Part shown: piece after piece, positions 12,393 to 50,267 of the stretch
Layout: every line of letters begins with the position of its first letter
How positions within the stretch are numbered: the stretch's first letter is position 1
Program-made: the position numbers and the translations under genes
The notes under the pieces: model-generated
Seen by the model: the letters and a program-made list of their open reading frames with translations, nothing else
Database searches by the model: none
What the model was told of the DNA's origin: nothing
Origin: Candidatus Woesearchaeota archaeon
Lineage (GTDB): Archaea > Nanobdellota > Nanobdellia > Woesearchaeales > UBA10216
DNA length: 64,000 nucleotides
Reading direction: 5' to 3'
NCBI GenBank assembly: GCA_016185705.1
Contig: JACPMZ010000007.1
Span: forward strand, 107,157-171,156

Positions 12393-12684
12393 TCCATATA
12401 TAAATAACTTTCTTTACAACTAAATGGTGGTTGCATAAGCTTTTAAAGAGCATGCGGGCGGCGCTGCAAATGTCATTGCCCGCGTTCTCCGGCTGACTTT
12501 AAGCTTCACTTCTGCAGGCGCTTCCTTTTTTCCATCCCTTAAATTGCGAGGGAGGAAAAAAGGAAGCGCGAAGAAAAGCAGTCGCGATGTGAGCGGCAGT
12601 CCTATATACTATATATGCTATCAAATCAGCTATAAAACCTTTATAATAAAGCTTAAATAGGCAGACTGCTCAGATGACAATTTG

Positions 12685-12834
12685 ATGGTTCTGGATTTTG
12701 TAAGCGCCGGACTTGAAAGCTATTTGCAGAAGTGTGCAGGCTGCAGCGCCATACTCAACTACGGCACCAACACCAAATTTGACGAAAAGCTCGTGGCGCA
12801 CATATGCACCAGCTGCGGGCAGGTGCTGAGGTAG
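12685..12834 (+). CDS. Small zinc-ribbon protein (49 aa, CxxC...CxxC)
   Basis: MVLDFVSAGLESYLQKCAGCSAILNYGTNTKFDEKLVAHICTSCGQVLR; below the ORF-track cut-off. Confidence 0.35.
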   Translation: MVLDFVSAGLESYLQKCAGCSAILNYGTNTKFDEKLVAHICTSCGQVLR

Positions 12835-12965
12835 AGCTGGTTTCAGCCCACTTTCCTAATCCGTTTTGTCTTACTGAGAGCAAAGTTCCATTATTCTAAA
12901 TAGCGCCACTCGCCACTGGACATGGGTGCGTAAGGATTATAAATAACTTAATATAAGGAGGTATC

Positions 12966-14255
12966 ATGCCAGAATTTATGAGTGTTATCCCAGTAACCAT
13001 TAAGGAAATGCAACGAGATTCTACATGGGACTTTGCTACTGCTGATACTAAGGAATTTACTCATTGCTTCCATTCTTATCCTGCCATGATGATTCCACAA
13101 GTTGCTAGAAAAATGCTGAAAATTTATGGGAAACAGGATAGCTCACTCATTGACCCTTTTATGGGTAGCGGCTCGGTTCTTGTTGAAGGGATGCTACACG
13201 AACCTATCACTAGCGCTTATGGATTAGATATAAATCCTTTGGCTATTTTAATAGCAAAAACTAAAACTACACCAATCAAACCGCAACTTTTGGAAAACAC
13301 GTTTTCTAAAATTTTGTCTGAATTTGATAAAAAAAAGAACACTGATCTTGGTTTCTATAATCTAACTAACATTAAATACTGGTTTAAAGAGCAAGCTATT
13401 AATGACTTATCCAGACTTAAAAGTTCAATTGATGAGGTAGATAACGGCAAGATTAAAAATTTCTTTCTGGTTTGTTTTTCAGAAACAACTCGTAAAGTAT
13501 CAAATACCCGTCCAGGTGAATTCAAGCTATACCGGATTAATGAAAAGAAGTTAGCCAATTATTTGCCAAATACCCTTGAGGTATTTACCCATGTTGTTAA
13601 GCGCAATATCAAAGGTATGCACTCATTTTATAGCGCATTCAACTATTTAGACAAAAAAACTGCCATAAATATTTACAAGGAAGACAGCCGAACAAAGACG
13701 TCAATCCCTTCGGAATCTTGTGACATTTTGGTGACTTCACCACCATACGGAGATTCAAGAACCACTGTAGCTTATGGGCAGTACAGCAGATTAAGCTCGC
13801 AATTATTGGGATATTCTTATGACGAAATAAGGCGGGTGGACCAGAACGGTTTAGGAGGAAAGCGCTCATATAAAGAAAACAATCTTGATTCGCCGCACCT
13901 GCAATCTGCATTGGATAAAATATCTGCGGCTGATGAAATTCGTGCTTTAGATGTGCTTGCTTTTTATGAAGATTTCAATAAGTGCATAACCGAAATAGAT
14001 CGTATTATGAAACCTAATTCACATCTTTGTTTTGTTGTCGGCAACAGAACTGTCAAAGGAGTAAAAATCCTAACTAACGCCATAATCGCAGAATTGTTTG
14101 AGTCTAGAGAAAACTATTCTCATTTGAAAACGATAATCAGAAAAATACCAAATAAGAAAATGCCTAAAATCAATAGTCCAACTAACGTAAAAGGCGTTAC
14201 AGGGCAAACAATGGATGAAGAATACCTCCTAATTCTTAAAAAGCTTAATTGCTAA
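12966..14255 (+). CDS. DNA methyltransferase of a type II R-M system, probably N4-cytosine-specific (motif I DPFMGSGS, motif IV TSPPYGD)
   Basis: FxGxG before SPPY with about 170 aa between them (alpha-class order); strong SD TAAGGAGGT; low-GC island. Confidence 0.8.
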   Translation: MPEFMSVIPVTIKEMQRDSTWDFATADTKEFTHCFHSYPAMMIPQVARKMLKIYGKQDSSLIDPFMGSGSVLVEGMLHEPITSAYGLDINPLAILIAKTKTTPIKPQLLENTFSKILSEFDKKKNTDLGFYNLTNIKYWFKEQAINDLSRLKSSIDEVDNGKIKNFFLVCFSETTRKVSNTRPGEFKLYRINEKKLANYLPNTLEVFTHVVKRNIKGMHSFYSAFNYLDKKTAINIYKEDSRTKTSIPSESCDILVTSPPYGDSRTTVAYGQYSRLSSQLLGYSYDEIRRVDQNGLGGKRSYKENNLDSPHLQSALDKISAADEIRALDVLAFYEDFNKCITEIDRIMKPNSHLCFVVGNRTVKGVKILTNAIIAELFESRENYSHLKTIIRKIPNKKMPKINSPTNVKGVTGQTMDEEYLLILKKLNC

Positions 14256-14537
14256 GACGGGCTGTGTTGAAAACCTCGCTTCCAGTAACTTTGCCAGTCC
14301 GCTGCCTTTTCATCTTCCCCTAATTTTTAAGGGGAGATGAAAAGGCAGCGGTTGAAAATGTAAGAATCGTGGAAGCGATATGTCACATTTTCAACAGAGT
14401 CTGATAAGACGGTACTTACTCAACTGAACTTTTATCCTCAGCGCATATATCCACCCTCCCTTAACTTTCGTAGGGAGGAGGAAATAGAGCGCAGTTGTGA
14501 GCAAGCGAAGTTGAGCAATGCAGGTACTATAAGAAAA

Positions 14538-15245
14538 CTACATTATCTGTTTTCTATGGCTGAAGCATAATTCCAACTTATCTGGAAGCACTCTAAATGC
14601 GGTGCCGTGATCGTGCGTTCTTCCGTTAGAATACTGGCCAATTCTGATATCAACCATTATTGTCCCTTCTTTCAGAAGGTTTAAAAAATTTTCAAAATCA
14701 AAGCCATTCAATAGCCAAGTTTCGTTAAACCAAAACATCTCTTGTTTACCGTCCCCGTTTACATCTGCTTTTACGTACATCAGTCTTGGAAGCTTTCGCT
14801 CAAAAGATTCTCTTAAAGTATTTTTGTCCCAATAACCAAATGATTTCCCATCTGGCGTCACTAGCTCTATTTTGTTGGTACTAATTTTAATCTTAAATCC
14901 TGGTTTGCCTTTCAAATTATTGAAATCAACAGCATTTACTGTTGAATGCAACTTCTTTTTGTTATTGCCTTTTGCAGATGGATAACCAAATTGTTTCAGC
15001 AACAAAGAATTAGCCTTTGGCGGCAAGGGAGATTTTGTAAACAGAGTAAGCAAGCTCTTAGTGTGCTTCCTAGTAGACTTAAGCTCAAGCATTAGACCAT
15101 TTGGGCCAGGCACATTATTTTCCTTTATTTTCAGTTCATCCTCCAAAGTTTTTCCAATACCAGTATTTCCAGCTCTATGCGTCTTAATATATCCCAAATC
15201 TTTAAGTCGCTTCAAATCCTGCACAAGCGCAGCATAACCGATCAT
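14538..15245 (-). CDS. Type II restriction endonuclease, MvaI/BcnI-like (from-memory resemblance)
   Basis: Convergent partner of the MTase; segments GNTGIGKTLEDELKIKENNV, LLTLFTKSP, HDHGTAFRV resemble BcnI/MvaI as recalled. Confidence 0.5.
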   Translation of the reverse strand: MIGYAALVQDLKRLKDLGYIKTHRAGNTGIGKTLEDELKIKENNVPGPNGLMLELKSTRKHTKSLLTLFTKSPLPPKANSLLLKQFGYPSAKGNNKKKLHSTVNAVDFNNLKGKPGFKIKISTNKIELVTPDGKSFGYWDKNTLRESFERKLPRLMYVKADVNGDGKQEMFWFNETWLLNGFDFENFLNLLKEGTIMVDIRIGQYSNGRTHDHGTAFRVLPDKLELCFSHRKQIM

Positions 15246-15518
15246 TTACTTCTAAAAATAAGAGTTCTAAATTTAAAGTTTCTGGTTTTTAATTGTATTT
15301 CCGTTTAAATCCATTTCCAAATATTTAGCCAAAATATAGTTAGGGACATAAATATCCTATCCGCATATTTCCAGTGTCCAGTGGTTTGTATAGAATATAT
15401 AGAGAAAAGTTAATATATATTTGTCCGTATTCGTTGACAACAAAAGAGGTGGGGCTTAAAACTAGCCTAAGATCCTCTTTTGGCTGGTTCTCTACCCCGC
15501 CTTTTTTGGAGGTAAAAA

Positions 15519-23793: not shown

Positions 23794-24037
23794 AAAGCAT
23801 GCCGCAACTGCCTATGGAATAAAAAGTTTGTGAGAAAATGGCAATCTCAGGCAAACTGTTTTTTTCAGCTGCCTGCCCTCACCTTTTATTCCCTCCAACT
23901 TTTAAGGGAGGGAATAAAAGACGAGAGACAGAACAAGCAAAAGCTGTCATCACAGGAAAAAATCAGCAGGGCTGGCGCAAACCGGAAAGTTTACTTTATG
24001 CAAACATATTTATACCAGATTATTAAAAGTTTTAATA

Positions 24038-24511
24038 ATGAAAGTAGTCGCTGAACAGCCGCTGGCTGAAATAATTCTGAGAAAATACGAGCTGCCTGAC
24101 CATATTAAAGAACGGGAGCTTGTGAAAAAGCTTTGCCTTTCCCTTGGCCTGCTGCAGCCGGGAGATTCGAGGGATGTTGTTGTTGATGTGCTGCACGTGC
24201 TGCTGAAAAACAGGAAAAGGCGAAAGCTGCTTACAGTGTCTGAGATAGAGAAAAAAGTTGTGCAGAACCGGAAGCTGCACAAAGTAGCTATGCTTGGAAT
24301 AGCGTCTTCCAATATACGGCGGCAAATCAAGCGCCTGAGGAACATGCTGATTGTTGAGAAAATCAGGACCGGCTACCGAATCAGCGAGTTCATGCCGATG
24401 CAGCAGCTCTTTGCAGAAAAAATACAGGGATTAATGCTGCCCAACATTGTGCAGCGAATAAACGGATATCTGCAAAGGGCTGATGATGTTTTCTCGGTGA
24501 AGAAGAACTGA
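24038..24511 (+). CDS. Hypothetical protein, possible winged-helix regulator
   Basis: 157 aa, helical; no firm family assignment. Confidence 0.4.
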   Translation: MKVVAEQPLAEIILRKYELPDHIKERELVKKLCLSLGLLQPGDSRDVVVDVLHVLLKNRKRRKLLTVSEIEKKVVQNRKLHKVAMLGIASSNIRRQIKRLRNMLIVEKIRTGYRISEFMPMQQLFAEKIQGLMLPNIVQRINGYLQRADDVFSVKKN

Positions 24512-24737
24512 AGATTTCGTTTCTCTGCCTCGCAATGTTTTTTATCGCCAGCTTCCTTTTTTCCTCCCTTCGCAAAGGTGAGAGAGGGAAAAGGGAAGCT
24601 GGTTTGTTGCTGTGAGAGAGGGCTGCAAAGTTTTGTCGTCTACAAAACAAAAAGCTTTAAATACAGGATAATTACATGAAGAGAAGTCACGACGAGAAAA
24701 GCGTCTTGATGATAAAAAAGATAAGGGGGATGCAAAA

Positions 24738-24968
24738 ATGGCTGAAAAAGTAGCAAAGGTTGGAATAAAGAAGGAAGACGGATACCTGTATTTCGTTGAC
24801 AAAAAAGGCAACGTAGGCAGAGCAAAGATGGTTCGCGGTGGAAGAAAGAAAGGGAAACAGAAACAACAGGTAGTTGCCAAGGTTGGCGTAAAGAAAGCCA
24901 AGGGATACCTTTACTTCATTGACAAGAAAGGGGATATTTCCAGGGCAAAGATGGTGCGCGGGAGATAA
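24738..24968 (+). CDS. Small basic protein with internal tandem repeat KVG(I/V)KK..GYLYF(V/I)DKKG..(G/S)RAKMVRG
   Basis: 76 aa; two 30-aa repeats; A-rich RBS-like stretch upstream. Confidence 0.45.
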   Translation: MAEKVAKVGIKKEDGYLYFVDKKGNVGRAKMVRGGRKKGKQKQQVVAKVGVKKAKGYLYFIDKKGDISRAKMVRGR

Positions 24969-25624: not shown

Positions 25625-25705
25625 TCTGCAAATTTCATCACGTCGGTATTTAAAGTTATTGCTTTCAACCCAGTATCTCCGAAACTGCCTTAGTTCCATC
25701 CACTG

Positions 25706-25757
25706 CGCTCTATTTCCTCCTCCCTCGAAATTTTAAGGGAGGAGGAAATAGAGCGCC
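25706..25757. repeat. Perfect 52-bp palindromic hairpin (GCGCTCTATTTCCTCCTCCC-loop-GGGAGGAGGAAATAGAGCGC); right half repeated at 14467-14490
   Basis: Direct inspection; member of the intergenic GC-stem hairpin family. Confidence 0.7.
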
Positions 25758-28751: not shown

Positions 28752-29119
28752 AGCTTTTTGCCATTCCCTGCGGCGCGCTACCTGATTTTGTACTCGGCAT
28801 CAATTATAGCGGAAGACACAAGTAATTATACAAAATAGTTGTGTCTTCCTGATATAGCGACTGACAAACATGTACAAAAACTAATGTCAGTCGCTATATT
28901 TTGGAAGGATTTCTGCCTGTTTTTCTTTTTAATTTTCCGGCGAGAAGAGCGATAACGCCAATGGTTGCCCCCACTGCCAGCAGCGCAAATATGAGCACAG
29001 GCATAAATATTATGAGGAGGAGGCTTATTGGCAATAACAGCATTGCTGCTATCCTGCTATTCGCTACAAAACGCAATTTGGGCATCAGAATGCACAAAAC
29101 ATACTGCTTTTAATATGTT

Positions 29120-29344
29120 TTACCTTTTATACCTGTACATGTACTGGTTTGCCCGGCCAGTGGGCCTGTACAATACCTGCTTGGACTTGCGCAGCTTGGA
29201 CAGGTTGTTTATTACAGAGCCTGTAGAAACCTTCAGGTTCTTGGCTATCTCCTTGGAGGTAAACCACTTAACCCTGAACTTTTTCAAAAAATCGCTGACT
29301 TCCTGTTGTCCCATTTTTTCTTCCCCTAAAGAATGTCTGGACAC
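29120..29344 (-). CDS. Small winged-helix DNA-binding protein
   Basis: 74 aa; FTSKEIAKNLKVSTGSVINNLSKL HTH-like segment. Confidence 0.4.
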   Translation of the reverse strand: MSRHSLGEEKMGQQEVSDFLKKFRVKWFTSKEIAKNLKVSTGSVINNLSKLRKSKQVLYRPTGRANQYMYRYKR

Positions 29345-29947
29345 TGGAGACTAGTATTTAAACCTAACGATTTAGGGGGTGCCGAAAAATGCCACTATCA
29401 GTATCGCAACCCCCAGAAATATGCCATAAATAATCAATGTTGCAACAGTCTGATAGCCCAGACATGCAAATGCCCTTTTAAGAAAACTATCGGAATTCAG
29501 CCATCCTTTGTAGCTGTGCGTGTCTGCTTTCGGCTTTTTCTCAGGCATGGGCTGGAAAATATGTTCTTATTTATAAACCTTTTTGCTGCAAAGGAGTTTG
29601 TCGACTAATTCACCTTGCTGCCTCTTGCGCTGCTTTTTCTCCCCCTTAACTTTCGAAGGAGGGCAGATAAGCAGCGCGGCAGTGAACAGGTGCGCAACAC
29701 CAAATCGACAAACTCGCTGCAAAGGATGGCTGAAGATGAAATGGCTCAAGCCGGGAAGGAACAATAGGGAAGAAAGGATAAATTTTGTTGAATACCGGGC
29801 ACACTATGTCAGAACACATCCCTGCAAGGAATGGAGCCGCCAGCAGAAAGTTCTCATCAACAGCATCATACAAAGCGCAAGGAGCGTCAGGCTCACACCA
29901 AGGCAGTATCTTGGGATAAAGGGCGAGGTTTGCAGGCGGCAGGCTGC

Positions 29948-30415
29948 TCAGGTGGTAAGCTTGGCGAGAATTTCCGTAAGATACCTTGGGCTGATGTAAT
30001 AGCCGGCTTTGACAAGCTGGCTTATTAACGTGACAGCCTCTTTTTTTGTTATAATTTTCCTTCCAACAGCCCTAATAAGCACGCTTGTTGTTCTGAGAAA
30101 ATTTATGCCTAACGCTTTGGCAGCCCTGATTGCTGCTGCATCGTCAATCAAAAGATCGTCATTACTTTCTTTCGCAAGGCTGAGTGAGGAATTCTCGCCT
30201 TTACCAAGCCCCAACTCAACAATTTGCTTAGGGTTGGCAACCATTATCCATCCTTCGTTAATGGCATCGCTTATTGAAGAATGTCCTGGTTTTCCTTCAA
30301 CCAAAACCTCATCCTTAACCACTTCTGTTACTGTAACACTGCCAAACAGCGCTTTTAGCAGCCTCAGCCGGCCAATTTTTGCAAGGCAGATGAGCGGAGT
30401 GGAATTGGCTATCAT
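29948..30415 (-). CDS. DUF3368 PIN-like nuclease toxin
   Basis: 155 aa, paired and overlapping with upstream UPF0175 gene. Confidence 0.6.
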   Translation of the reverse strand: MIANSTPLICLAKIGRLRLLKALFGSVTVTEVVKDEVLVEGKPGHSSISDAINEGWIMVANPKQIVELGLGKGENSSLSLAKESNDDLLIDDAAAIRAAKALGINFLRTTSVLIRAVGRKIITKKEAVTLISQLVKAGYYISPRYLTEILAKLTT

Positions 30416-30723
30416 TTTAGCAGCTTGAGGTCATTTTCAAGGTCTTCTTCAGAATAGCCTGTCCAGTCCAGGTTTCTTTCCTTAACGAGCTCAAGCATTT
30501 CCCACAGAGAAACACCGCATTCTTCTGCTGCCTTCCCAATCGACTTCTTATGCGCAGCAACGTCCTCAAGCGCAGCTTTTATCTTCAATTCATGTATGGA
30601 ACTGACCAGTAAACGACGCACAACTTCGCTCCTGTCAGTCTGCCATCTATTCTCCACTTCGGCCAAGTCCTTCAGGACTGATTTGTCCAGCCTAACTGAT
30701 ATTGTCGCTGCCATTGTATTCAA
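30412..30723 (-). CDS. UPF0175-family antitoxin
   Basis: 103 aa; C-terminal helix-turn-helix AAEECGVSLWEMLELVKERNL typical of UPF0175. Confidence 0.55.
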   Translation of the reverse strand: MNTMAATISVRLDKSVLKDLAEVENRWQTDRSEVVRRLLVSSIHELKIKAALEDVAAHKKSIGKAAEECGVSLWEMLELVKERNLDWTGYSEEDLENDLKLLK

Positions 30724-36224: not shown

Positions 36225-36341
36225 GAAAATGGGAAATTGAAAGCGTTAATAAAGATTGCTGCTTTGAAGACGCTTGGCCGCTTTTTTTCCCCCCATTAAA
36301 AATCATGGGAGGCAATAAAAAGCACAGGTGCGAGAAAAACA

Positions 36342-36815
36342 TTAACCCTTAGAACCATAATCCTTGCTTGATGGGCCTGAAACAGAATAATCCTGCTGCC
36401 CCTGCCCTGATGCCGAGTAAGTTTTTGCCGGCGAGCCGTCTGCTTCGTACGCTTTCAGCTGCACGCCTTCCTTAAGGCCTGCAGCTGTTACTGAAAACAG
36501 CTGCCCGCAGCTGCAGCCGGCCATAACCGGCTTCTTTTTTTCTGCAGGTTCGTCCATGCTTTGTTGCCGGGGAGAATCGCTGCTGCTGCTATTCTTATTA
36601 GCATCCTCATTGGAAAAATTAGCAGTAGCTGCGTTGCTCTGAGTTTTCATCTTCCACTCCTGCTCTTCCTCAATTATTCTGCGCTCAAAATCGCTTTCGC
36701 TAATCGGAGCTATGACCACGTCTGTGCCGTCATCATGGTGGTGGCGGGTTTCAATAAGTTTAATGGTATCCTTAAGCTGCTTTTCCCTTATTGCGTCAGA
36801 GATTCCGTCTTTCAT
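36342..36815 (-). CDS. Hypothetical protein with Ser/Gln-rich low-complexity C-terminus
   Basis: Translationally coupled (TAACATG) to upstream zinc-ribbon ORF. Confidence 0.4.
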   Translation of the reverse strand: MKDGISDAIREKQLKDTIKLIETRHHHDDGTDVVIAPISESDFERRIIEEEQEWKMKTQSNAATANFSNEDANKNSSSSDSPRQQSMDEPAEKKKPVMAGCSCGQLFSVTAAGLKEGVQLKAYEADGSPAKTYSASGQGQQDYSVSGPSSKDYGSKG

Positions 36816-36816
36816 G

Positions 36817-37002
36817 TTACAAGTCGCTGCAGTCAGTTTTGAAACCGCAGTTAGGGCAGATGTAAGTGCAGTGCACCCTCTTAATTGTCGTTCCGCACAT
36901 AATGCATTCCTCAGGGCTCACGCTTAAAACATTTTGCACATATAAAGCCAATATGCGGAGTTTTATTAATTTATCGCTGGACCGCTTAAGCACTCGCCGC
37001 AC
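36817..37002 (-). CDS. Zinc-ribbon protein (61 aa, CxxC...CxxC)
   Basis: ECIMCGTTIKRVHCTYICPNCG. Confidence 0.4.
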   Translation of the reverse strand: MRRVLKRSSDKLIKLRILALYVQNVLSVSPEECIMCGTTIKRVHCTYICPNCGFKTDCSDL

Positions 37003-37113
37003 TCCTTATTTTCTCCCTCCCCTGACTTTAGGGGAGAAAATAAAGAGCAATGAAGTGCGTTTTTGGATACGGACAGCGAAAGTTTTATATAAGCTCTTCC
37101 CCCTTTTTGCTGC

Positions 37114-37758
37114 ATGGCTGAAGGTGCGAAAGGATTATTTGCGCGGTTCCGAAAGAAGAAAGAGGAAAAGCCCGCTGATAAAAAAGGGCCAATTGAGATT
37201 CATGAGCCGCACGCACCTGCTTACAGCGAAAGCATTGGCAAGCTGTTCCCTACAAGAATAAAATACCGCGGGCTTTATGACCTGGATGGCCTGTACAGGC
37301 TGATGTCAAACTGGCTGAGGCAGAGGCGCTACCGCGTATATGAAACTCTTTACAAGTCCAAGCCGCCTGAGCTTGAAATAAGGTGGACTGCTGAAAGGGA
37401 AAAGTCAGGGTTTGTGATGGAAGTCATTACAATTTACTACCACAGCTACGGGGAATATGATGTTGACGTTGTAATCAACGGCAGGAAGAAGAAGATGACA
37501 AACGCTAGGATGATTCTGACCTTGGGCGGTGACATAAAGGCGCCTTACGAAGACATATTCGGAAGGCCCCGGTGGACTGCAAACGCAACTGAGCGAAGAC
37601 TGCTAAACCTCTTCCGGAACTGGTTTGTCAAAAGGGATTTGGAATCAGTTTACTGGGATACATTGTATTATGAACTGCAGAAATTCCAGGGAGCCATAAA
37701 GGATTTCCTCAGAATGGAAGCAAAAGGAAACATTTACGAATCCAAGCCGAGTGAATAA
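37114..37758 (+). CDS. Hypothetical protein, paralog 1 of a tandem pair
   Basis: Shares Y.GL....L..L...WL...., KK(M/I)...R / G.V.M motifs with downstream gene. Confidence 0.5.
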   Translation: MAEGAKGLFARFRKKKEEKPADKKGPIEIHEPHAPAYSESIGKLFPTRIKYRGLYDLDGLYRLMSNWLRQRRYRVYETLYKSKPPELEIRWTAEREKSGFVMEVITIYYHSYGEYDVDVVINGRKKKMTNARMILTLGGDIKAPYEDIFGRPRWTANATERRLLNLFRNWFVKRDLESVYWDTLYYELQKFQGAIKDFLRMEAKGNIYESKPSE

Positions 37759-38300: not shown

Positions 38301-38472
38301 TTGTTTTTTCTATTGCATGTCAGTAGGGCAATGCTGTTCTTAACAGCAACGGCTTTGCAAGCAGAGGGGAAGCAAAAAGAAATCTGGAGATATTTAAAAT
38401 GCTGCACAAGTTGGCGTAAGAATGCGGGCAGCGGAAATCCGATGGTTTCCTGGTCTGCATTTAGTTCGTAAA

Positions 38473-38569
38473 TGCGGGGGACGTGATTCGAACACGCGCA
38501 ACCACTAAGGTACAGGATTGCTTCTGAAACTTAAGTCCTGCGCTTTTGACCAGACTCAGCCACCCCCGC
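38473..38569 (-). tRNA. tRNA-Leu (anticodon UAA) with putative 11-nt intron at canonical 37/38 position
   Basis: 7-bp acceptor GCGGGGG/CCCCCGC, 3-bp D-stem, anticodon stem CAGGA/TCCTG, long variable arm, T-arm GCGTG-TTCGAAT-CACGT. Confidence 0.6.
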
Positions 38570-38792
38570 ATAGCGGCATTGCTTCAGGCATTGTTTATAA
38601 ATTTTTGTGGTGTGTGAAGTCAGCTCCTCAAGTATCTGCCTTTATCCTGCCAACTCAAATTCCAATCCCCCAACTCAATTTCACGCTGCGCTGCTTTTTT
38701 TCCCTCCCCTAAAATTTAAGGGGAGGAAAAAAAGCAGCGGGGACCCTTACATTTGCGAAAGTCTAATAAGCCAGTGCAGTAATTGTGTGTGA

Positions 38793-39332
38793 ATGGCAGA
38801 TATTCTCGGCTGGGGCTCAGGGACTTTGATTGTTATTGCAGTCCGGCTTCTCGTGCCTTTAACAATATTCTGGAAACCGCTTCCTGGCGCAATACTGTCT
38901 GTGCTGGCAGACACTTTTGACGTGGTCCTGCTTACACTTATCGGCAGAGGCTTTTTCCCTGACTACACCAAATTTGACAAGGCGCTGGACTGGTACTTCA
39001 TGCTTTTTATGATGGTGAAGTCGTGGCAGTGGGAGCCGCTGGCAAAATGGACGGCTGCTGCACTGTTTGGCTGGCGAACAGCTGGAGTGGCACTGATTGA
39101 AGCAACAGGAACGCGGCAGCTTCTGTTTGTTTTTCCCAACCTTTTTATCCTGTGGTGGTTTTTCAACCAGATAAGGATGCAGTATGCGCCTAATTTTAAG
39201 CTTACACCCAAGCGCGTCATTGCTGCGCTGCTGATACTGCTCATTCCAAAACTTGCCCAGGAATATTACCTGCACATTTTCCAAGCACAGCCCTGGACAT
39301 GGATTCAGGAGCACATTTTAAGAATTAAGTAG
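38793..39332 (+). CDS. Hypothetical membrane protein (Trp-rich, 4-5 TM)
   Basis: Hydrophobicity pattern. Confidence 0.5.
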   Translation: MADILGWGSGTLIVIAVRLLVPLTIFWKPLPGAILSVLADTFDVVLLTLIGRGFFPDYTKFDKALDWYFMLFMMVKSWQWEPLAKWTAAALFGWRTAGVALIEATGTRQLLFVFPNLFILWWFFNQIRMQYAPNFKLTPKRVIAALLILLIPKLAQEYYLHIFQAQPWTWIQEHILRIK

Positions 39333-39810: not shown

Positions 39811-39893
39811 GCCTCTGTAGCTCAGTGGTGGAGCGTTACCTTGGTATCCATACAAAAAGGTAGAGGTCGCGGGTCCAATTCCCGCCAGAGGCT
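39811..39893 (+). tRNA. tRNA-Thr (anticodon GGU) with putative 11-nt intron at 37/38
   Basis: Acceptor GCCTCTG/CAGAGGC, D-arm GCTC-AGTGGTG-GAGC, anticodon stem TTACC/GGTAG, T-arm GCGGG-TCCAATT-CCCGC. Confidence 0.6.
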
Positions 39894-40811: not shown

Positions 40812-41134
40812 ATTTTATAATTGGCGCTTTTACCGCTTGCATCCCCCCTTAATGTTCAGGTGTAGATGAAAGGGCAGCGGATTTGCGGCTGGTGTTTTGC
40901 TTGGCTTGTTTCCTGATTTTCCCCTCTCTCAATATTTAGGGAAGGTAAAAACAGGGCAGCTTGGAATTAGTTTCGAAGGCAACTTTTCAATTATGCAGTT
41001 TATTTTGTGCTGTTTTGAAAATCTTACCTTCAGGCGCCCATGAACTTTTCATCGCTTCATGACCAAAATAAACGATAGATTTAAATAGTGAAATATGCAA
41101 TACCCCTCCTAATTACAAAAAGAGGTGTTTTATA

Positions 41135-41751: not shown

Positions 41752-41893
41752 GGGTAATGTCAAGTTGTGTGTCCTGCAATCCTGAGCTTGCCGATGCCTG
41801 CTTGGCTGATTTTTTTCTCCCCCCTTATTTTTTAAGGGGGGGAGAAAAAAATCAGGGAAGGATGCGACGGTTTTGCCACTTAACTTGAAATTA
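41752..41893. mobile_element. Repeat element family B, copy 3 (reverse orientation, full length)
   Basis: Reverse complement of 6383-6522; ends 12 bp before a tRNA gene. Confidence 0.6.
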
Positions 41894-43861: not shown

Positions 43862-44572
43862 TCACAGCATCGCCTTAACCATCCTGTTGCCCAAAGCTTT
43901 AACCGGCCTGGGCAATGAGAGCTGCCCGGCAAAGGAGTAGATTGATGTGAGCAGCAGAACATACAGATTCCTGAATTTGTCAAATATTGATAAATGGCTG
44001 GTCTTGGTAGCGTACGTTATTCCCTCCACAAAACCTATGTTCCTGAACCTGCTGCCGAAGTACAGATGCCTGTTGACGACCTTTTTCGGCCCTCCTTTCT
44101 GGCTGTCGTGGAAAGCAATAACGCCGCCATCTATCAGATGCGGCTCCCACAGCTTATAGTCAAGCAGAACCATTTCGTACTCATGAGCGCCGTCAATCCA
44201 CAAAAAGCCGATTTTTTTGTCCCAGTTCCTGGCTGCGGCTTCAGAGGTTTTCACAATCGGCTTTACCAAACCGTCAACTTTGGCAGCTTTGACATTTTGC
44301 TTAAATTCCTCAAAAGTCCACACTTTGCCAAACATCTTCTTGTGCTCGGATGAGCCGGTGTGCGGGTCAATAGCATAAACGGCAGCATGGTTTCCGTCCT
44401 TAGAACCGCTGGCAAGCCAGACAGTTGACTTGCCCTTCCAGCTGCCAATTTCAACTATTGCAGCGCTTTGCGGACATTTCCTGGCAGAATTGTAAAGAAA
44501 TCTGCCCTCAGCAGGCGAAAGCCAGCCGTCAATAGATGCAGCGGTTTTCTGCAGTTCGCCTAATCTGTCCAT
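43862..44572 (-). CDS. Class I SAM-dependent methyltransferase (O-MTase-like)
   Basis: IVEIGSWKGKST glycine-rich SAM motif; GFLWIDGAHEYE. Confidence 0.7.
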   Translation of the reverse strand: MDRLGELQKTAASIDGWLSPAEGRFLYNSARKCPQSAAIVEIGSWKGKSTVWLASGSKDGNHAAVYAIDPHTGSSEHKKMFGKVWTFEEFKQNVKAAKVDGLVKPIVKTSEAAARNWDKKIGFLWIDGAHEYEMVLLDYKLWEPHLIDGGVIAFHDSQKGGPKKVVNRHLYFGSRFRNIGFVEGITYATKTSHLSIFDKFRNLYVLLLTSIYSFAGQLSLPRPVKALGNRMVKAML

Positions 44573-44809
44573 GAAAACACACCAACGCGGCAATATATAA
44601 ATTTTTTTGGCAATTCAGCATAATAAGATCGCTTTTGTAATATCTATTCTTTACCTCGCACAATAGCGCTGCTTTTTTCCCTCCCCTTAAAATTTAGGGG
44701 AGGGAAAAAAAGCAGCGGTTATCAGCGCAAAGAGGACAGCAGCGTGAATCATTGGCAGGGGAATCAAATACCCAAAAGCTTTATATTTGCATAAAACGCT
44801 TATTAAGGC

Positions 44810-46309
44810 ATGGATGATGCTACTAAGAAGTATCTGATAATAGGGGGCATACTGCTGCTTGCAGTTGCTGTGCGGCTGTACGGGCTGACTGCTGAAAGCA
44901 TATGGTTTGACGAAGCATTTTCCATATACGTTGCGCAGCAGCCGGCTTCCACTATTATGTCGCTGCCTGACACCAATCCGCCGCTGCACATACTTGGAAT
45001 GTCTTTCCTGGTAAAGCTGTTTGGAGCAACTGCCTTCTGGGCGCGGCTGCCGTCTGTGCTTTTCGGAGCAGGAGCTGTGCTGTTCTCCTACCTTGTATTC
45101 AAAAAAATATTTGGAGAGAAAACAGCTGTAATCTCGGCGCTGATAGTCGCATTATCCAGCTACCACATAATCTTTTCGCAGGAAGCAAGGATGTATGCCA
45201 TGCTTGGATTCATGGCGCTGCTTTCAATGCACGCATACATATCCTATCTCCAGACTCCGACGAGAAAAACAGGCATGTACTATACTGCAGCAACCATCCT
45301 TCTTGCGTTTACCCACGTTTACGGGTTGCTCCTTATCCTGACGCAGAACATCTTCTACTACATGATATACCGCAAATACCAGCGCAGCATGAAGCACTGG
45401 GCGCTGATGCAAATCATAGTATTCATTTTTTACCTCCAGTGGCTGCCAACCCTGCTGCAGCAGGCAGCCCTTGTGCAAAACAGTTTTTGGCTGTCACACT
45501 TCCAGACAGCCAGCGCCATATTTTTGCCGCTGATATTCTCCGGGGAGCTGCTGCTTGGGGCAGTGCTGACAGCGCTTGCAGCGCTCGCAATATGGAAGCT
45601 TTTCAGGACGCAAAGAAACCCTGAAGCAGAGCTGCCAAAACTGGTGCTGCTGTGGATGACAGTTCCTGCGATAGTAGCAGTCGCTTACTCAATACTCGCA
45701 ACCCCTGTGTTTTTGCATAAGTACGTCATGTACAGCTCCTTCCCATTCTACGCATTTGCTGCGCACGCAGCCGGCAAACTGCCCCAGCCAAAGAAGTGGG
45801 GCGTTATGGGAATAATAATCGGGCTGTCATTTTTTGCAATACTTTACCAAGCGCAGAACACAGACAACGACAACTGGAGCGCAGCGCTAAGCCACGTGCA
45901 GTCAATAGACGACGGCAGCACCGTAATAGTAAACCCTCCGTTCCAGCTCGTGCCGTTCATGTATTATTACGACAAGGAATGCTTCAGCCAGAGCTACCTT
46001 TACAACTGCGCGCGGGACAAAAGAATATTCACGTCAAGGGACTGGACTACTGCCACAGACACCCTTAGCCATTCCGAGAAGATAGTTGTTGTTGATGTGA
46101 CGTTCCCGGGAGCGCAAGAGCCTGATATTGCTGGAAATCTCAGCAAGACGCATGTATTAACATCCGAGCAGCGATTTGAAGCGCTGCCAAGCGGCTCAAT
46201 GTACTACAGCCTCAAGCTGGCAAACGGCGTGCTTCCTGACGTAATAAAATCAATAAGGGAGCGAAGCACATCCACCATAACCGTAAGGGAGATGTACAGC
46301 GTGAACTAA
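44810..46309 (+). CDS. Glycosyltransferase family 39/83-like (ArnT/PMT-type) membrane protein
   Basis: N-terminal RLYGLTAESIWFDEAFS loop motif and multiple TM helices. Confidence 0.7.
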   Translation: MDDATKKYLIIGGILLLAVAVRLYGLTAESIWFDEAFSIYVAQQPASTIMSLPDTNPPLHILGMSFLVKLFGATAFWARLPSVLFGAGAVLFSYLVFKKIFGEKTAVISALIVALSSYHIIFSQEARMYAMLGFMALLSMHAYISYLQTPTRKTGMYYTAATILLAFTHVYGLLLILTQNIFYYMIYRKYQRSMKHWALMQIIVFIFYLQWLPTLLQQAALVQNSFWLSHFQTASAIFLPLIFSGELLLGAVLTALAALAIWKLFRTQRNPEAELPKLVLLWMTVPAIVAVAYSILATPVFLHKYVMYSSFPFYAFAAHAAGKLPQPKKWGVMGIIIGLSFFAILYQAQNTDNDNWSAALSHVQSIDDGSTVIVNPPFQLVPFMYYYDKECFSQSYLYNCARDKRIFTSRDWTTATDTLSHSEKIVVVDVTFPGAQEPDIAGNLSKTHVLTSEQRFEALPSGSMYYSLKLANGVLPDVIKSIRERSTSTITVREMYSVN

Positions 46310-46327
46310 TAGTAAAACGCATTAATA

Positions 46328-46457
46328 TTGAAAAGTTCACGCAGCCTCGCTCTGTTGCTGGCTTCCCTTCCTGCTTTTTCCCTCACCTGAATATTTAAGG
46401 GAGGGAAAAAGCAGGAAGAACGGCGGGATAAACGCAGCGGTAAAGTGAACTTTTCAA
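46328..46457. mobile_element. MITE-like element family A, copy 2 (perfect 13-bp TIRs TTGAAAAGTTCAC/GTGAACTTTTCAA)
   Basis: About 93% identical to 6234-6363; between convergent genes. Confidence 0.65.
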
Positions 46458-46557
46458 TAGCACCTGCGCTTTGCCAAACAGCAATTGAACAGCCCTTTTG
46501 CAATTTGCTGTTTACGCATTCTGCGCTGTCCGATTCTGCAATACGCCATGCGGCAGT

Positions 46558-48111: not shown

Positions 48112-48180
48112 GATAGACGTTCTAAAATGTGCCACATTTTGAGCACATAACTTTAAATAGCAATTGACTAATGATCGATT

Positions 48181-48711: not shown

Positions 48712-48913
48712 GCGTTTTAGCGATTCGGGGAACAGTGTACATCGCTGGGTTGCCGGTAAAAAGCTAGGAAGACCACTTCGAACGGAGGAACGTGTGCATC
48801 ATATAAACAGAGATAAACTAGACAATAGACCAAGTAATCTGTGGGTATTCAAAAACCAAACGGAACACACCAAAGCTCACAGAAGGGATAAGAAACGATA
48901 CGGATTTTGGTAA
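48677..48913 (+). CDS. HNH endonuclease
   Basis: VHHINRDKLDNRPSNLWVF...HTKAH core HNH motif; overlaps previous gene in another frame. Confidence 0.7.
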   Translation: MAKWFINKKGYRRFSDSGNSVHRWVAGKKLGRPLRTEERVHHINRDKLDNRPSNLWVFKNQTEHTKAHRRDKKRYGFW

Positions 48914-48935
48914 TTAAAAAAAGGAGGTGACGCAA

Positions 48936-49050
48936 ATGGGAAAAACGTATTATTGCATACAGTGTAATAGAGAAATAAAACAGAAAGGCAGATGCCTTCC
49001 TTGTAATATGGAAGCAAAAAGGAGAAGAGAAGCACAAGAAAGAAAATATT
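48936..49050 (+). CDS. Mini zinc-ribbon protein (38 aa)
   Basis: AGGAGGTGA SD; MGKTYYCIQCNREIKQKGRCLPCNMEAKRRREAQERKY. Confidence 0.3.
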
Positions 49051-49124
49051 AAATCTCCTTTAACTGATTTTTTTACTATTTATTGGAACCACGTTCTTTT
49101 TCATTTTTTGTTCCTCCAGAAGAA

Positions 49125-49410
49125 GCAGGCCCTTGTATTTAAGCCGGGTTGCCTTTATGTGGCCACAAAGCACGGGCTTGACTTTCAAAGACCACGCCCA
49201 AACACGGACGTGACTTTGAAAGGTTACGCCGGGACTGGGACATACTCACTGCGGTTCGTAGCCCCAGTCCCGGCTCTGTTCGCTTCGCTCACTACGCCGG
49301 GACTGGGACTTTCATTGACTCTGATGTTGTTCAGCCAGTCTTTTTTGAACCCAGACACCCTTAACGGGAACAGCCTCACTTGATTGTTCCAGGGCTGCGC
49401 GATGCCAGAT
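49125..49410 (-). ncRNA. Candidate structured ncRNA; carries RNase P RNA-like motifs GAAAGUCC (5' region) and AACCCGGCUUA (3' region)
   Basis: GC-rich, ORF-poor, 12-bp hairpins, 17-nt direct repeat; motif order and strand fit RNase P RNA P4 strands but the fold is not confirmed. Confidence 0.25.
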
Positions 49411-49760
49411 TACGCGATCCCGGCACAGGCATAAGCTGTTTGGCAGTTTATTTAAATGTGATGATTTGGGCGGGGTTGTTGCGAAAACAGCTTTTCATGC
49501 CCGCTGCTGTTCACTTTATCCAAACTTCTTTTATTTCTCACAGCGATAATTAGGGGGAGAAGAAAAGAAGCTGAACTAAGCTTTGGCACAATTGACCTAT
49601 AGGAAATAACCTTAATTTTCGTATGTTTTGAAATGATTGCAAGGTTATTTCCTAATAAGCAAATCACCTATTCGTTAGGAACAAAATTCCGATTATTAAA
49701 GTGATTTGCTATAATTACGCAACAACCCCTATTCGTATAATGAAAAAATGTTCCAATAAA

Positions 49761-50066
49761 TTATATTTCAACAAAAACCCCGTCATTTTCTACAATTACC
49801 TTGTACGCAGGCACCTTGGCGCCGGGCTGGGTCTGGGATTCGCCAGTTTCCAGGTCATATTCCCATGCGTGCAATGGGCAGGTAACTGTTTCCCCGGCTA
49901 CAAATCCTTCGCCTAAAGAACCGCCCTGATGGGCGCAGATGTTTGAGATGGCAAAAAACTTTCCTTTAATGTTGAACACCGCTATTTCTTTGCCGGCAGC
50001 TTCCACTATCTTTGAGCTGCCTTCTGGAATTTCGTTCACGTTTGCTACTTTGATTTTTTGCGGCAT
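49761..50066 (-). CDS. Rieske [2Fe-2S] domain protein (NirD-like small subunit)
   Basis: CAHQGGSL ... CPLHAWEYDL (CxH...CxxH). Confidence 0.8.
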   Translation of the reverse strand: MPQKIKVANVNEIPEGSSKIVEAAGKEIAVFNIKGKFFAISNICAHQGGSLGEGFVAGETVTCPLHAWEYDLETGESQTQPGAKVPAYKVIVENDGVFVEI

Positions 50067-50267
50067 TTTAAATTCGTCTGAAATACCTCTAATTTTCCCA
50101 CCATGCTCCTCTGCTTCTTAACCACCATCCGATGATTTTTTCCCTACCCTGAAATGTCAGGAGAGGGAAAAAAGCAGCGGGAATAAAAAAGTCCCTTGGA
50201 GCGCTTTGTGCTTAGCGAACAAACAGAAACGGAAAGTCTTATAAATATTTTGCCACGCACTATTGCT

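What the first reader, a model, noticed from the sequence alone, without database searches (positions are those of the whole stretch)
12519..50178. Pervasive family of intergenic GC-stem / T-tract palindromic hairpins related to the MITE cores
At least 14 intergenic sites share the architecture (GCAGCGG)-TTTTTT-CCCTCCCC-AT-rich 8-10 nt loop-GGGGAGGG-AAAAAA-(CCGCTGC). They lie at 9602-9645, 12519-12568, 14300-14351 (perfect 22-bp stem), 14448-14490, 23883-23920, 24549-24603, 25706-25757 (perfect 52-bp palindrome, half-copy at 14467-14490), 29627-29678, 36285-36325, 37003-37047, 38689-38740, 40911-40955, 44667-44717 and 50132-50178. Most sit in divergent promoter regions rather than between convergent genes, so they are not simply terminators. 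Being palindromic, they would present an oligo-U tract on either strand. They may be regulator binding sites, bidirectional terminators/insulators, or decayed MITE cores.
Basis: seen in the sequence. Interest (0 to 1): 0.6.

Follow-up and report, generated by a model that had tools for sequence, protein, structure and literature searches.

The report
Mobile palindromic repeats in a Woesearchaeote
The hairpins are real, but they are a lineage-specific family of small palindromic mobile repeats (MITE cores plus about 50-bp solo copies) scattered between the genes of a DPANN archaeon, not a dedicated set of terminators or regulator sites; this is a fairly ordinary kind of genomic parasite whose T-runs probably also stop archaeal transcription from either side.

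Summary
**Observation:** confirmed and extended. The window holds 19 hairpins of one architecture (GC clamp, T4-7, CCCTCC, AT loop, GGAGGG, A4-7, clamp). Shuffles give 0-1. None overlaps a gene.

**Organism:** the window is archaeal, a Candidatus Woesearchaeota MAG that encodes FttA/aCPSF1, Kae1, IleRS and ThrRS. Bacterial terminator logic therefore does not apply.

**Distribution:** Seven hairpins lie in divergent, nine in tandem and three in convergent spacers, at roughly equal density per kb. All lie outside the core promoters.

**Link to mobile elements:**
- Eight hairpins are the centres of two MITE families with terminal inverted repeats.
- Three of these MITE copies have 9-bp target-site duplications.
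- One MITE-B copy has an empty site in a sister-strain contig. A second is replaced there by 26 nt.
- Eleven hairpins are solo units of about 50 nt with unrelated flanks. Two of them are 96% identical.

**Relatives:** syntenic regions in related species lack the hairpins. The exception is one site 3' of one gene, which carries a hairpin in the nearest relative and a decayed one in a second relative.

**Best reading:** a non-autonomous palindromic mobile repeat family that expanded in this lineage. Its T-runs on both strands would also act as bidirectional archaeal terminators. That step is inferred, not shown.

**Verdict:** new member of a known kind, modest interest.

The parts
6228..6370 (.). 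MITE-A copy 1 (143 nt). Its TIR is about TATTGA(C/A)AAGTTCAC. It is flanked by the 9-bp TSD TAATTATCG (6219-6227 and 6371-6379). The hairpin core lies at 6276-6321.
6380..6522 (+). MITE-B copy 1 (143 nt). Its TIRs are GGTAATTTCAAGTT and AACTTGATATTACC. It is flanked by TAATTATCG (6371-6379 and 6523-6531). The hairpin core lies at 6420-6469.
9602..9644 (.). Hairpin with a perfect 18-bp stem. It is the core of a diverged MITE-A-like element of about 9560-9688. The right TIR GAACTTTTCAATA at 9676 is perfect. The left TIR at 9560 has 3 mismatches.
11584..11687 (+). Left-truncated MITE-B copy 2. It begins at the hairpin (11585-11634). It is flanked by the 9-bp TSD CTATCCTGC (11575-11583 and 11688-11696). 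It is absent, leaving an empty site with one TSD copy, in sister-strain contig L004.
11760..11779 (.). Left arm (GCGCTGCTTTTTTCC) of a split hairpin. The right arm (GGGAAAAAAGCAGC) lies about 79 nt downstream in contigs L001, L003 and L004. In the window it is removed by a 41-nt deletion at 11826/11827.
12518..12569 (.). Solo hairpin in the divergent spacer between 11916-12392(-) and the methyltransferase gene 12966-14255(+).
14299..14351 (.). Hairpin in the convergent spacer of the restriction-modification gene pair. A weak MITE-A-like TIR remnant lies at 14265.
14448..14490 (.). Decayed hairpin. Its right arm is identical to that of 25705-25756, and its left arm is degenerate.
23883..23920 (.). 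Solo hairpin in the divergent spacer between the deoxyhypusine synthase gene (-) and 24038-24511(+). It is absent from the 88-nt orthologous spacer of L005.
24548..24602 (.). Hairpin 36 nt 3' of gene 24038-24511. This is the only site with a positional counterpart in relatives: L005 16761-16803, and a decayed copy in L135.
25705..25756 (.). Solo hairpin with perfect 21-bp arms. It lies upstream of the true promoter of the ribulose-phosphate epimerase gene, whose real start is 25624.
29627..29678 (.). Partly decayed solo hairpin in the spacer between the 64-aa gene 29119-29313(-) and the PIN-like gene 29948-30415(-).
36277..36330 (.). Weak or decayed solo hairpin, 16 nt 3' of 36342-36815(-). 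It accounts for the extra 59 nt of this spacer relative to L005.
37002..37047 (.). Solo hairpin in a divergent spacer, upstream of the canonical promoter (CGAAAGTTTTATATA) of 37114-37758.
38689..38739 (.). Solo hairpin between tRNA-Leu(-) and 38793-39332(+). It is 96% identical, in inverted orientation, to 44667-44717, and the flanks of the two are unrelated.
40911..40955 (.). Hairpin with a MITE-A-like right TIR (CAACTTTTCAATT) at 40980.
41753..41893 (-). MITE-B copy 3 (141 nt, 99% identical to copy 1), with its hairpin core at 41806-41855. In sister-strain contig L139 a 26-nt promoter-like sequence stands in its place.
44667..44717 (.). Solo hairpin in the divergent spacer between the methyltransferase gene 43862-44593(-) and 44810-46309(+).
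46322..46464 (.). MITE-A copy 2 (94% identical to copy 1), with its hairpin core at 46367-46418. It lies in a convergent spacer.
50129..50180 (.). Solo hairpin in the divergent spacer between the Rieske gene (-) and Kae1. The real Kae1 start is 50268, with its promoter at about 50230.

Best explanation
The hairpins are copies of a lineage-specific family of small, non-autonomous, palindromic mobile DNA repeats in a Candidatus Woesearchaeota (DPANN archaeon) genome.

**Architecture.** The conserved module is a palindrome of about 45-55 bp: GC clamp, T4-7, CCCTCC, AT-rich centre, GGAGGG, A4-7, clamp.

**Two settings.**
- It forms the centre of two 143-nt MITE families with terminal inverted repeats, still active in the sampled population. 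Three of their copies carry 9-bp target-site duplications.
- It also occurs as solo units with unique flanks.

**Spread (shown).** Copies spread in this lineage after it split from its nearest sampled relatives. They survive only in DNA between transcription units.

**Function (inferred).**
- Archaeal RNA polymerase, together with FttA/aCPSF1, terminates at oligo-U without needing a hairpin. Each copy presents a T-run first to a polymerase arriving from either side.
- An inserted copy should therefore behave as a bidirectional terminator or insulator.
- This would explain why copies are tolerated only outside promoter-to-stop units. It would also explain why one copy 3' of a gene has been kept across species.

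**Open point.** The enzyme that moves the elements is not in the window. A DDE-type transposase is inferred for the MITEs from their TIRs and 9-bp duplications. The way solo copies disperse is unresolved.
For: **Organism and setting.**
- The window is archaeal. Pfam finds FttA KH plus beta-CASP, Kae1, IleRS and ThrRS.
- The nearest loci are Woesearchaeota MAGs.
- An identical protein is named HYX10_03475, Candidatus Woesearchaeota.

**A real repeat family.**
- 19 copies against 0-1 in shuffles.
- Motif count 24 against 1.28 expected.
- None overlaps genes that cover 75% of the window.

**Link to MITEs.**
- Eight hairpins sit at the centre of MITE-A or MITE-B frames.
- TAATTATCG occurs three times, bracketing MITE-A and MITE-B in tandem.
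- CTATCCTGC brackets copy 11584-11687.

**Mobility in the population.**
- Contig L004 has the empty site AAGCTTG-CTATCCTGC-CGG.
- Contig L139 has 26 nt where the window has MITE-B copy 41753-41893.

**Dispersal of the solo unit.** 38689 and 44667 are 96% identical, yet their flanks are unrelated.

**Restriction to this lineage.**
- Syntenic spacers in L005-L020 and L135-L138 lack the hairpins. ThrRS identity to these is 62-78%, and g24038 identity is 78-82%.
- The L005 spacers are shorter: 88 against 244 nt, 58 against 117 nt, and 186 against 298 nt.
- The MITE and solo sequences hit only same-species contigs.

**No preference for gene ends.** Density is 1.39 per kb in divergent, 1.40 in tandem and 0.77 in convergent spacers.

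**Position relative to promoters.** In every case read, hairpins lie upstream of the AAAnnTTTATAAA promoters, which sit about 23 nt before the ATG.

**Termination inference.**
- T >=4 is present on both strands in 16 of 19 copies, and T >=5 in 10 of 19.
- Many genes have T5-9 runs right after the stop codon.
- FttA is encoded at 4308-6200.
- U-tract plus aCPSF1 termination without a hairpin is established in archaea (PMC8716108, PMC7515710).

**Census context.** A Woesearchaeal genome is among the most MITE-dense archaeal genomes (PMC11602168).
Against: - No target-site duplication flanks any solo hairpin.
- No solo copy is polymorphic among the near-identical strain contigs sampled. Mobility of solo copies therefore rests on the 38689/44667 pair and on absence from relatives.
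- No transposase or HUH/RAYT-like gene is present in the 64 kb.
- Stems remain about 92% paired while arms are only 57-61% identical among copies. Simple neutral decay of transposon copies does not predict this. It hints at selection for pairing or at a hairpin-based copying step.
- One site keeps a hairpin in three species, which suggests function at least there.
- It is unexplained why two MITE families with unrelated arms both carry this module at their exact centre.
- No transcript data exist, so the terminator effect is untested.
Confidence: 0.62

Rival explanations
1. The hairpins are host-selected bidirectional terminators or insulators. They would be kept because they stop read-through and upstream antisense transcription between closely packed, leaderless transcription units. 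The MITEs would merely have captured such a module.
For: - T-runs are present on both strands in 16 of 19 copies.
- All copies lie outside transcription units.
- The copy 36 nt 3' of gene 24038-24511 is retained in L005 and, decayed, in L135.
- Stems stay paired despite sequence turnover.
- T/A and C/G runs are the most conserved alignment columns.
- The TATA box TTTATAAA is itself palindromic, so divergent firing is plausible.
Against: - Seven of 19 copies sit between divergent promoters, where no gene needs a terminator. Density is no higher at 3' ends: convergent spacers have the lowest.
- Native T5-9 runs already follow many stop codons, including genes that also have a hairpin, such as 4308-6200 and 24038-24511.
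- Related species manage without the hairpins at the same spacers.
- MITE copies are polymorphic within the population.
- Archaeal termination does not need a hairpin (PMC8716108).
Confidence: 0.17
2. The hairpins are palindromic binding sites, or cruciform sites, for a dimeric DNA-binding protein such as a regulator, a nucleoid protein or a recombinase.
For: The CCCTCC / GGGAGG half-sites are symmetric around an AT-rich centre and are nearly invariant. Many copies lie near promoters.
Against: - Flanking genes are functionally unrelated.
- Distances to promoters and start codons vary from about 40 to more than 400 nt.
- Copies occur equally in convergent and tandem spacers.
- The sites are absent upstream of the same genes in relatives.
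- Loop length varies from 3 to 14 nt, which changes half-site spacing.
Confidence: 0.08
3. The hairpins are transcribed structured RNAs, either small hairpin RNAs or 3'-end stabilisers acting at the RNA level.
For: The predicted hairpins are very stable. Many bacterial MITE and REP transcripts act this way (PMC10969869, PMC3733652).
Against: - No Rfam family matches at gathering threshold.
- Stem mismatches are T:G and C:A in similar numbers, so no strand is favoured.
- The T-run precedes the stem, so an archaeal polymerase should often stop before transcribing the stem.
- No promoter was noticed directly upstream of the hairpins in the sequences read.
Confidence: 0.05
4. The hairpins are bidirectional promoters, with the AT-rich loop acting as the TATA box.
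For: Loops such as TTAAAATTTAA resemble a TATA box, and seven copies are in divergent spacers.
Against: - The real promoters (AAAnnTTTATAAA, about 23 nt before the ATG) are separate and lie between the hairpin and the gene, for example at 37114, 38793, 24983 (true start 25624) and Kae1 (true start 50268).
- The distance from loop to start codon ranges widely.
- The sequence upstream of the loop is C-rich, unlike the A-rich BRE seen here.
Confidence: 0.03
5. The hairpins are bacterial-type intrinsic (Rho-independent) terminators.
For: They have GC-containing stems and T-runs in intergenic DNA.
Against: - The organism is an archaeon.
- On both strands the T-run lies 5' of and inside the stem, and an A-run, not a T-run, follows the stem.
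- Seven of 19 copies are between divergent genes.
Confidence: 0.01

Closest known systems
Prokaryotic MITEs (TIR/TSD non-autonomous transposons; for example Sulfolobus SM1-4, the Neisseria Correia element, QMITE of Coxiella)
   Same: - They are small (143 nt), non-coding, multi-copy and intergenic.
- They have terminal inverted repeats and 9-bp target-site duplications.
- They show insertion and empty-site polymorphism.
- The whole element is an imperfect long palindrome.
- High MITE density has already been reported for a Woesearchaeal genome (PMC11602168).
   Different: - Most copies here (11 of 19) are bare palindromes of about 50 bp, with no recognisable outer TIRs or duplications.
- Two families with unrelated arms share the same central module.
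- No autonomous partner was identified.
REP / BIME elements mobilised by RAYT tyrosine transposases
   Same: - They are short extragenic palindromes, dispersed singly in both orientations.
- They have no target-site duplication.
- They vary strongly in abundance between related lineages.
- Roles in termination or mRNA ends have been proposed for them.
   Different: - There is no GTAG or CGTC tag at either end.
- The stems are longer (14-25 bp) and AT-containing, with homopyrimidine/homopurine arms.
- No RAYT gene was seen.
- The host is an archaeon.
[quoted passage not shown]
   Same: It is a mobile small repeat whose sequence mimics the host's termination signal, and it clusters with other repeats (PMC10969869).
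   Different: SPRITE mimics the bacterial stem-then-U signal. Here the relevant signal would be the archaeal oligo-T, present on both strands, with the stem irrelevant to termination.
Archaeal U-tract / aCPSF1 (FttA) terminators
   Same: T4-7 runs lie on the non-template strand. FttA with KH domains is encoded in the window. Native T-runs follow many stop codons.
   Different: Native terminators need no palindrome, are not repeated sequences and sit at gene 3' ends. The hairpins are palindromic repeats found equally between divergent promoters.
Mobile palindromic GC clusters of yeast mitochondrial DNA
   Same: They are short, self-complementary dispersed elements with no known dedicated transposase. 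They are lineage-specific and polymorphic (PMC4478555, title and abstract only).
   Different: The host, composition and sequence are all different. The resemblance is by analogy only.

Membership tests
MITE (TIR/TSD non-autonomous DNA transposon) | Short, non-coding and present in multiple copies with unrelated flanks | tested here: met
   MITE-A has 2 copies (94% identical) plus 2-3 diverged ones. MITE-B has 3 copies (92-99% identical). Flank homology stops at the element ends.
MITE (TIR/TSD non-autonomous DNA transposon) | Terminal inverted repeats | tested here: met
   MITE-B has GGTAATTTCAAGTT / AACTTGATATTACC, matching at 13 of 14 positions. MITE-A has TATTGA(C/A)AAGTTCAC / GTGAACTTTTCAATA. 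In solo copies the only inverted repeats are the hairpin arms themselves.
MITE (TIR/TSD non-autonomous DNA transposon) | Target-site duplication | tested here: inconclusive
   Three MITE copies have 9-bp duplications: TAATTATCG (three times) and CTATCCTGC (twice). None was found at MITE-B copy 3, MITE-A copy 2 or any solo hairpin.
MITE (TIR/TSD non-autonomous DNA transposon) | Presence/absence polymorphism with an empty site | tested here: met
   L004 has the empty site for 11584-11687. L139 lacks 41753-41893. No polymorphism was seen for solo copies.
MITE (TIR/TSD non-autonomous DNA transposon) | An autonomous element with matching TIRs that encodes the transposase | not testable with these tools
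   No transposase domain was found in the window ORFs scanned.
REP / RAYT elements | GTAG or CGTC tetranucleotide tag at one end of the palindrome | tested here: not met
   The ends read (G)CGCTGC...GCAGCG(G), CTGA...TCAG or CCTGC...GCAGG. No GTAG or CGTC is present at the palindrome ends.
REP / RAYT elements | Associated RAYT (IS200/IS605-like HUH) gene | not testable with these tools
   None is present in the 64-kb window. The rest of the genome is unavailable.
Bacterial intrinsic terminator | Stem-loop immediately followed by a 3' U-tract on the transcribed strand | tested here: not met
   On both strands the T-run is the 5' part of the stem, and an A-run then the clamp follows the loop.
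Bacterial intrinsic terminator | Located downstream of genes, and depleted between divergent genes | tested here: not met
   Seven of 19 lie in divergent spacers, and density equals that in tandem spacers.
Archaeal oligo-T (U-tract/aCPSF1) terminator | Run of >=4-5 T on the non-template strand | tested here: met
   T >=4 is present on both strands in 16 of 19 copies, and T >=5 in 10 of 19.
Archaeal oligo-T (U-tract/aCPSF1) terminator | Transcript 3' ends map to the tract | not testable with these tools
   No transcriptome data are available.
Archaeal BRE/TATA promoter | TATA box about 23-27 nt upstream of the transcription or leaderless translation start, preceded by an A-rich BRE | tested here: not met
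   Genuine promoters (AAAnnTTTATAAA, about 23 nt before the ATG) are separate from the hairpins. Loop-to-start distances vary widely, and the sequence upstream of the loops is C-rich.

The most novel reading that the evidence does not exclude
The palindrome of about 50 bp may be a self-propagating module in its own right: an archaeal counterpart of REP elements. On this reading it moves, or is copied, through a single-stranded hairpin intermediate in which one arm corrects the other. This would explain near-perfect stems despite about 40% divergence among copies, the absence of target duplications, and the truncated MITE-B copy that starts exactly at the hairpin. The module would also have been domesticated in this streamlined DPANN genome as a compact bidirectional oligo-T insulator between leaderless transcription units.
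Probability: 0.15. Interest if true: 0.6.

Novelty: new member of a known kind. Interest (0 to 1): 0.3.

Why it matters
- It shows that a small, streamlined DPANN archaeal genome can carry an actively transposing family of palindromic mini-elements at about 300 copies per Mb. These elements account for much of the difference in intergenic length from its relatives.
- Because the copies carry T-runs on both strands, they are a natural test case for how mobile repeats reshape transcription-unit boundaries in Archaea, where termination needs only oligo-U plus FttA.
- Practically, these palindromes break short-read assemblies, since contigs end inside them. They could also be misannotated as terminators if bacterial rules are applied.
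- None of this overturns current understanding.

Tried and rejected
- **Giant-virus 'hairpin rule' (Mimivirus-type polyadenylation hairpins).** I considered this after the first neighbours looked viral or eukaryotic (methyltransferase, MvaI/BcnI nuclease, NIF phosphatase). I dropped it once Pfam showed an archaeal core gene set.
- **Bacterial terminator reading.** Rejected on anatomy and host.
- **Loop as TATA box.** Rejected after mapping the real promoters and correcting two start codons.
- **Metagenome pattern scan.** It gave 71 single hits in unrelated contigs with GC-rich loops. Some look like organellar GC clusters. None came from this lineage, so the scan was uninformative and is now spent.
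- **Two viral-contig scans.** One used MITE-B internal sequence and one the solo hairpin. Both gave 0 hits.
- **MAFFT/RNAalifold covariation.** The alignment is out of register because of stem indels, so the result is not usable. I replaced it with per-copy stem statistics.
- **TSD search at solo hairpins.** Nothing consistent was found.
- **Relaxed regular-expression search for decayed copies.** It added none.
- **Strain contigs around the solo hairpins they cover (12518, 14299, 14448, 23883, 24548, 36285, 37002, 40911, 50129).** No solo polymorphism was seen; 25705, 29627, 38689 and 44667 were not fully covered.
- **Supplementary MITE tables of PMC11602168.** They are not held.

Full report

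Yes. All 14 listed intervals contain the palindromes described.

An unbiased scan for ungapped hairpins (score >=12, loop 3-14 nt) returns 15 hits in 64 kb. Every one has the same polarity: a pyrimidine-rich 5' arm (71-100% C/T), with T-run then CCCTCC-like tract, an AT-rich loop, and a purine-rich 3' arm. Twenty block-wise dinucleotide shuffles give 0 or 1 hit.

The arm motif TTTTTYCCCTCCCC (<=2 mismatches) occurs 24 times against 1.28 expected. Twenty-two of those lie in the hairpins, always as facing pairs, so there are no lone arms.

Nine of ten tested copies fold, as single-stranded DNA, at -13 to -26 kcal/mol with z-scores of -5.5 to -11.5. The tenth (36277-36330) is weak, z -1.8.

The five are 6276, 6420, 11585, 41806 and 46367. 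There is also a split one whose left arm is at 11760.

- The clamp is CGCTGC...GCAGCG, not the reverse.
- 14300-14351 has a bulge.
- 25706-25757 has perfect 21-bp arms around a 10-nt loop.

**2. What genome is this?**

It is not a bacterium.
- The large ORFs are FttA/aCPSF1 (KH plus beta-CASP), Kae1, IleRS, ThrRS, deoxyhypusine synthase and similar.
- The closest loci in species-representative genomes are Candidatus Woesearchaeota MAGs. ThrRS identity is 78% to L005 and 62-67% to a groundwater group.
- A window protein is 100% identical to NCBI HYX10_03475 of a Candidatus Woesearchaeota archaeon.
- Near-identical contigs (98.7-100%) occur in Logan assemblies of SRR121133xx-1134xx.

Upstream regions show a clear promoter consensus, AAAnnTTTATAAA, ending about 23 nt before the ATG. 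Transcripts are therefore mostly leaderless. Many genes have T5-9 directly after the stop codon.

**3. Where do the hairpins sit?**

No hairpin overlaps the gene set, which covers 75% of the window. I corrected the gene map in two ways:
- I added three small conserved genes: 24738-24968, 29119-29313 and 36817-37002.
- I moved two start codons: Rpe to 25624 and Kae1 to 50268.

After these corrections the counts are:

| Spacer type | Hairpins | Spacers occupied | Density per kb |
|---|---|---|---|
| Divergent | 7 | 7 of 16 | 1.39 |
| Tandem | 9 | 8 of 21 | 1.40 |
| Convergent | 3 | 2 of 9 | 0.77 |

So 'mostly divergent' is not correct. There is no enrichment at gene 3' ends either.

Where promoters can be read, they lie between the hairpin and the gene. 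This holds at 37114, 38793, 24983, Kae1 and 35877. The hairpins therefore occupy the untranscribed gaps between transcription units.

**4. Relation to MITEs, and evidence of mobility.**

Two repeats of 143 nt carry a hairpin at their exact centre:
- MITE-A: 6228-6370 and 46322-46464, 94% identical.
- MITE-B: 6380-6522, 11584-11687 and 41753-41893, 92-99% identical.

Both have terminal inverted repeats.

At 6219-6531 the 9-mer TAATTATCG occurs three times and brackets MITE-A and MITE-B in tandem. Copy 11584-11687 is bracketed by CTATCCTGC.

Sister-strain contig L004 reads AAGCTTG-CTATCCTGC-CGG, which is the empty site with a single copy of the duplication. Contig L139 is 100% identical on both sides but has 26 nt (TAAAGCTTATATACTTACAAATCAGC, promoter-like) where the window has MITE-B copy 41753-41893. 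MITE-B is therefore active in the sampled population.

MITE-A-like TIR remnants at the expected offset also flank hairpins 9602, 40911 and, weakly, 14299.

The other 11 hairpins have flanks with no similarity to each other or to the MITEs. They show no flanking duplications. Even so, 38689 and 44667 are 96% identical, in inverted orientation, over 51 nt with unrelated flanks. The unit of about 53 nt has therefore been dispersed by itself at least once.

A 41-nt indel at 11826/11827 removes one arm of a split copy.

**5. Comparative evidence.**

The window is syntenic with L005 over 19.4-43.4 kb, and with several other Woesearchaeota loci.
- None of the orthologous spacers in L005-L020 carries a hairpin of this type.
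- The L005 spacers are shorter by roughly the size of the inserts: 88 against 244 nt, 58 against 117 nt, and 186 against 298 nt.
- Three further relatives, with 78-82% identity of g24038 (L135-L138), also lack them.
- MITE and solo sequences hit only same-species contigs.

The exception is the copy 36 nt 3' of gene 24038-24511.
- L005 has a hairpin of the same type at the same position, TTAATTTCTCCTCCC...GGGAGGAAAAATTAA as read in window orientation.
- L135 has a decayed one.
- L136 and L138 have none.

So the family predates the split from L005 and L135, and it expanded in the window's lineage.

**6. Structure versus sequence.**

Across copies, 92% of stem positions are Watson-Crick paired, while 5' arms are only 57-61% identical between copies.

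Mismatches are mainly transitions. T:G and C:A occur in similar numbers, so no transcribed strand is favoured.

The most conserved alignment columns are the T/A runs and the C/G runs. Clamp and loop vary.

This pattern fits any of three explanations, and I could not separate them:
- several palindromic master copies;
- arm-to-arm correction in a hairpin intermediate;
- selection for pairing.

**7. Mechanism.**

*Shown:* this is a repeated, palindromic, lineage-restricted family. Part of it transposes, with TIRs and 9-bp duplications.

*Inferred:*
- The MITEs are moved in trans by a DDE-type transposase that is not in the window. No transposase domain was found.
- Solo copies are either minimal elements or surviving cores of eroded MITEs.
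- In Archaea, termination depends on U-tracts together with aCPSF1/FttA and needs no hairpin (PMC8716108, PMC7515710). Each copy offers a T-run first to a polymerase coming from either side: T >=4 on both strands in 16 of 19 copies. An inserted copy should therefore act as a bidirectional terminator.
- That would explain tolerance only between transcription units, and possibly the retention of the copy 3' of 24038-24511.

*Against a primary host function:*
- The distribution across spacer types is even.
- Native T-runs are already present at the same 3' ends.
- The hairpins are absent from relatives.
- There is polymorphism within the population.

**8. Comparison with known systems.**

The MITE copies meet the MITE criteria: small, non-coding, with TIRs, duplications and empty sites. 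A census paper already lists a Woesearchaeal genome among the most MITE-dense archaeal genomes (105 per Mb, PMC11602168).

The solo copies work like REPs, as short dispersed palindromes without duplications. However, they fail the defining GTAG/CGTC tag test (PMC3733652), and no RAYT gene is seen.

The closest functional analogy is SPRITE, a mobile repeat that mimics the host's terminator (PMC10969869). Here that idea is transposed to the archaeal oligo-T signal.

They are not bacterial intrinsic terminators, because the T-run is on the wrong side of the stem. They are not promoters either.

**9. Verdict.**

This is a new member of a known kind, of modest interest.

The unresolved points are:
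- why two MITE families share this central module;
- how solo copies spread;
- what keeps the stems paired.

Together these leave a small chance of a REP-like, hairpin-templated archaeal element.

Noticed in passing
window 24738-24968 (+): A 76-aa small protein with an internal duplication (…VAKVGIKKEDGYLYFVDKKGN… appears twice). It is conserved at about 76% nucleotide identity in relatives and was called as a gene in sister contigs. The 80-aa ORF filter missed it.
   Followed up: partly
window 29119-29313 (-): A 64-aa protein that looks like a wHTH protein. Its DNA is about 80% identical in all Woesearchaeota relatives, which is higher than the neighbouring enzymes. At first it looked like a conserved non-coding segment.
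   Followed up: partly
window 36817-37002 (-): A 61-aa Cys-rich ORF (weak C1-like hit) whose DNA is conserved in L005. It is probably a real small zinc-binding protein gene, directly abutting hairpin 37002-37047.
   Followed up: partly
window 41753-41893 vs L139 3057-3082: A sister strain carries a 26-nt promoter-like sequence (TAAAGCTTATATACTTACAAATCAGC) exactly where the window has MITE-B. The insertion therefore replaced or deleted a likely promoter upstream of the AI-2E transporter gene.
   Followed up: partly
window 11826/11827 vs L001/L003/L004: A 41-nt indel polymorphism. The window lacks TGCTGCGGAGATACTGGTTTCAGTTGAGGGAAAAAAGCAGC, which holds the right arm of a split hairpin.
   Followed up: yes
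window 12966-15245: A restriction-modification pair: an N6/N4 methyltransferase and an MvaI/BcnI-family endonuclease, convergent. Its codon score is low, which suggests horizontal acquisition. Family hairpins bracket it.
   Followed up: no
window 29948-30723 (-): A toxin-antitoxin-like pair (UPF0175 plus a PIN-like protein), followed by about 630 nt of non-coding DNA. No match to either gene was found in L005, whose corresponding spacer is shorter.
   Followed up: no
window 2902, 21284 (-), 41049: The box TCATCGCTTCA lies next to a TATA-like CTTTAAAGAATTC at two sites (2902, 21284) and near promoter-like sequence at the third (a 32-nt inverted repeat, 91%). It may be a shared regulatory or leader element.
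   Followed up: no
window 38472-38570 and 39811-39893: tRNA-Leu(TAA) is 99 nt long. A second tRNA is found by Rfam (56 bits) but not by ARAGORN. They may be intron-containing or atypical archaeal tRNAs.
   Followed up: no
Logan contigs L139-L143, L148, L149, L140/L141 ends: Short-read contigs start or stop inside the palindromes (38697, 38728, 25736, 25761, 41781). The repeats are assembly breakpoints.
   Followed up: partly
window 6935-7004 and 7459-7528; 60169-60205 and 60691-60727: Two local direct repeats (89% and 84% identical). The first duplicates part of the prepilin-peptidase gene region. The second repeats a promoter-like CGGCAGCGATAnGTTTTTATAGTAG.
   Followed up: no
window 46.9-49.7 kb and 59.7-62 kb: Stretches where ORFs have poor codon scores and no Pfam hits. 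They may be foreign, decayed or non-coding DNA. No family hairpins lie there.
   Followed up: no
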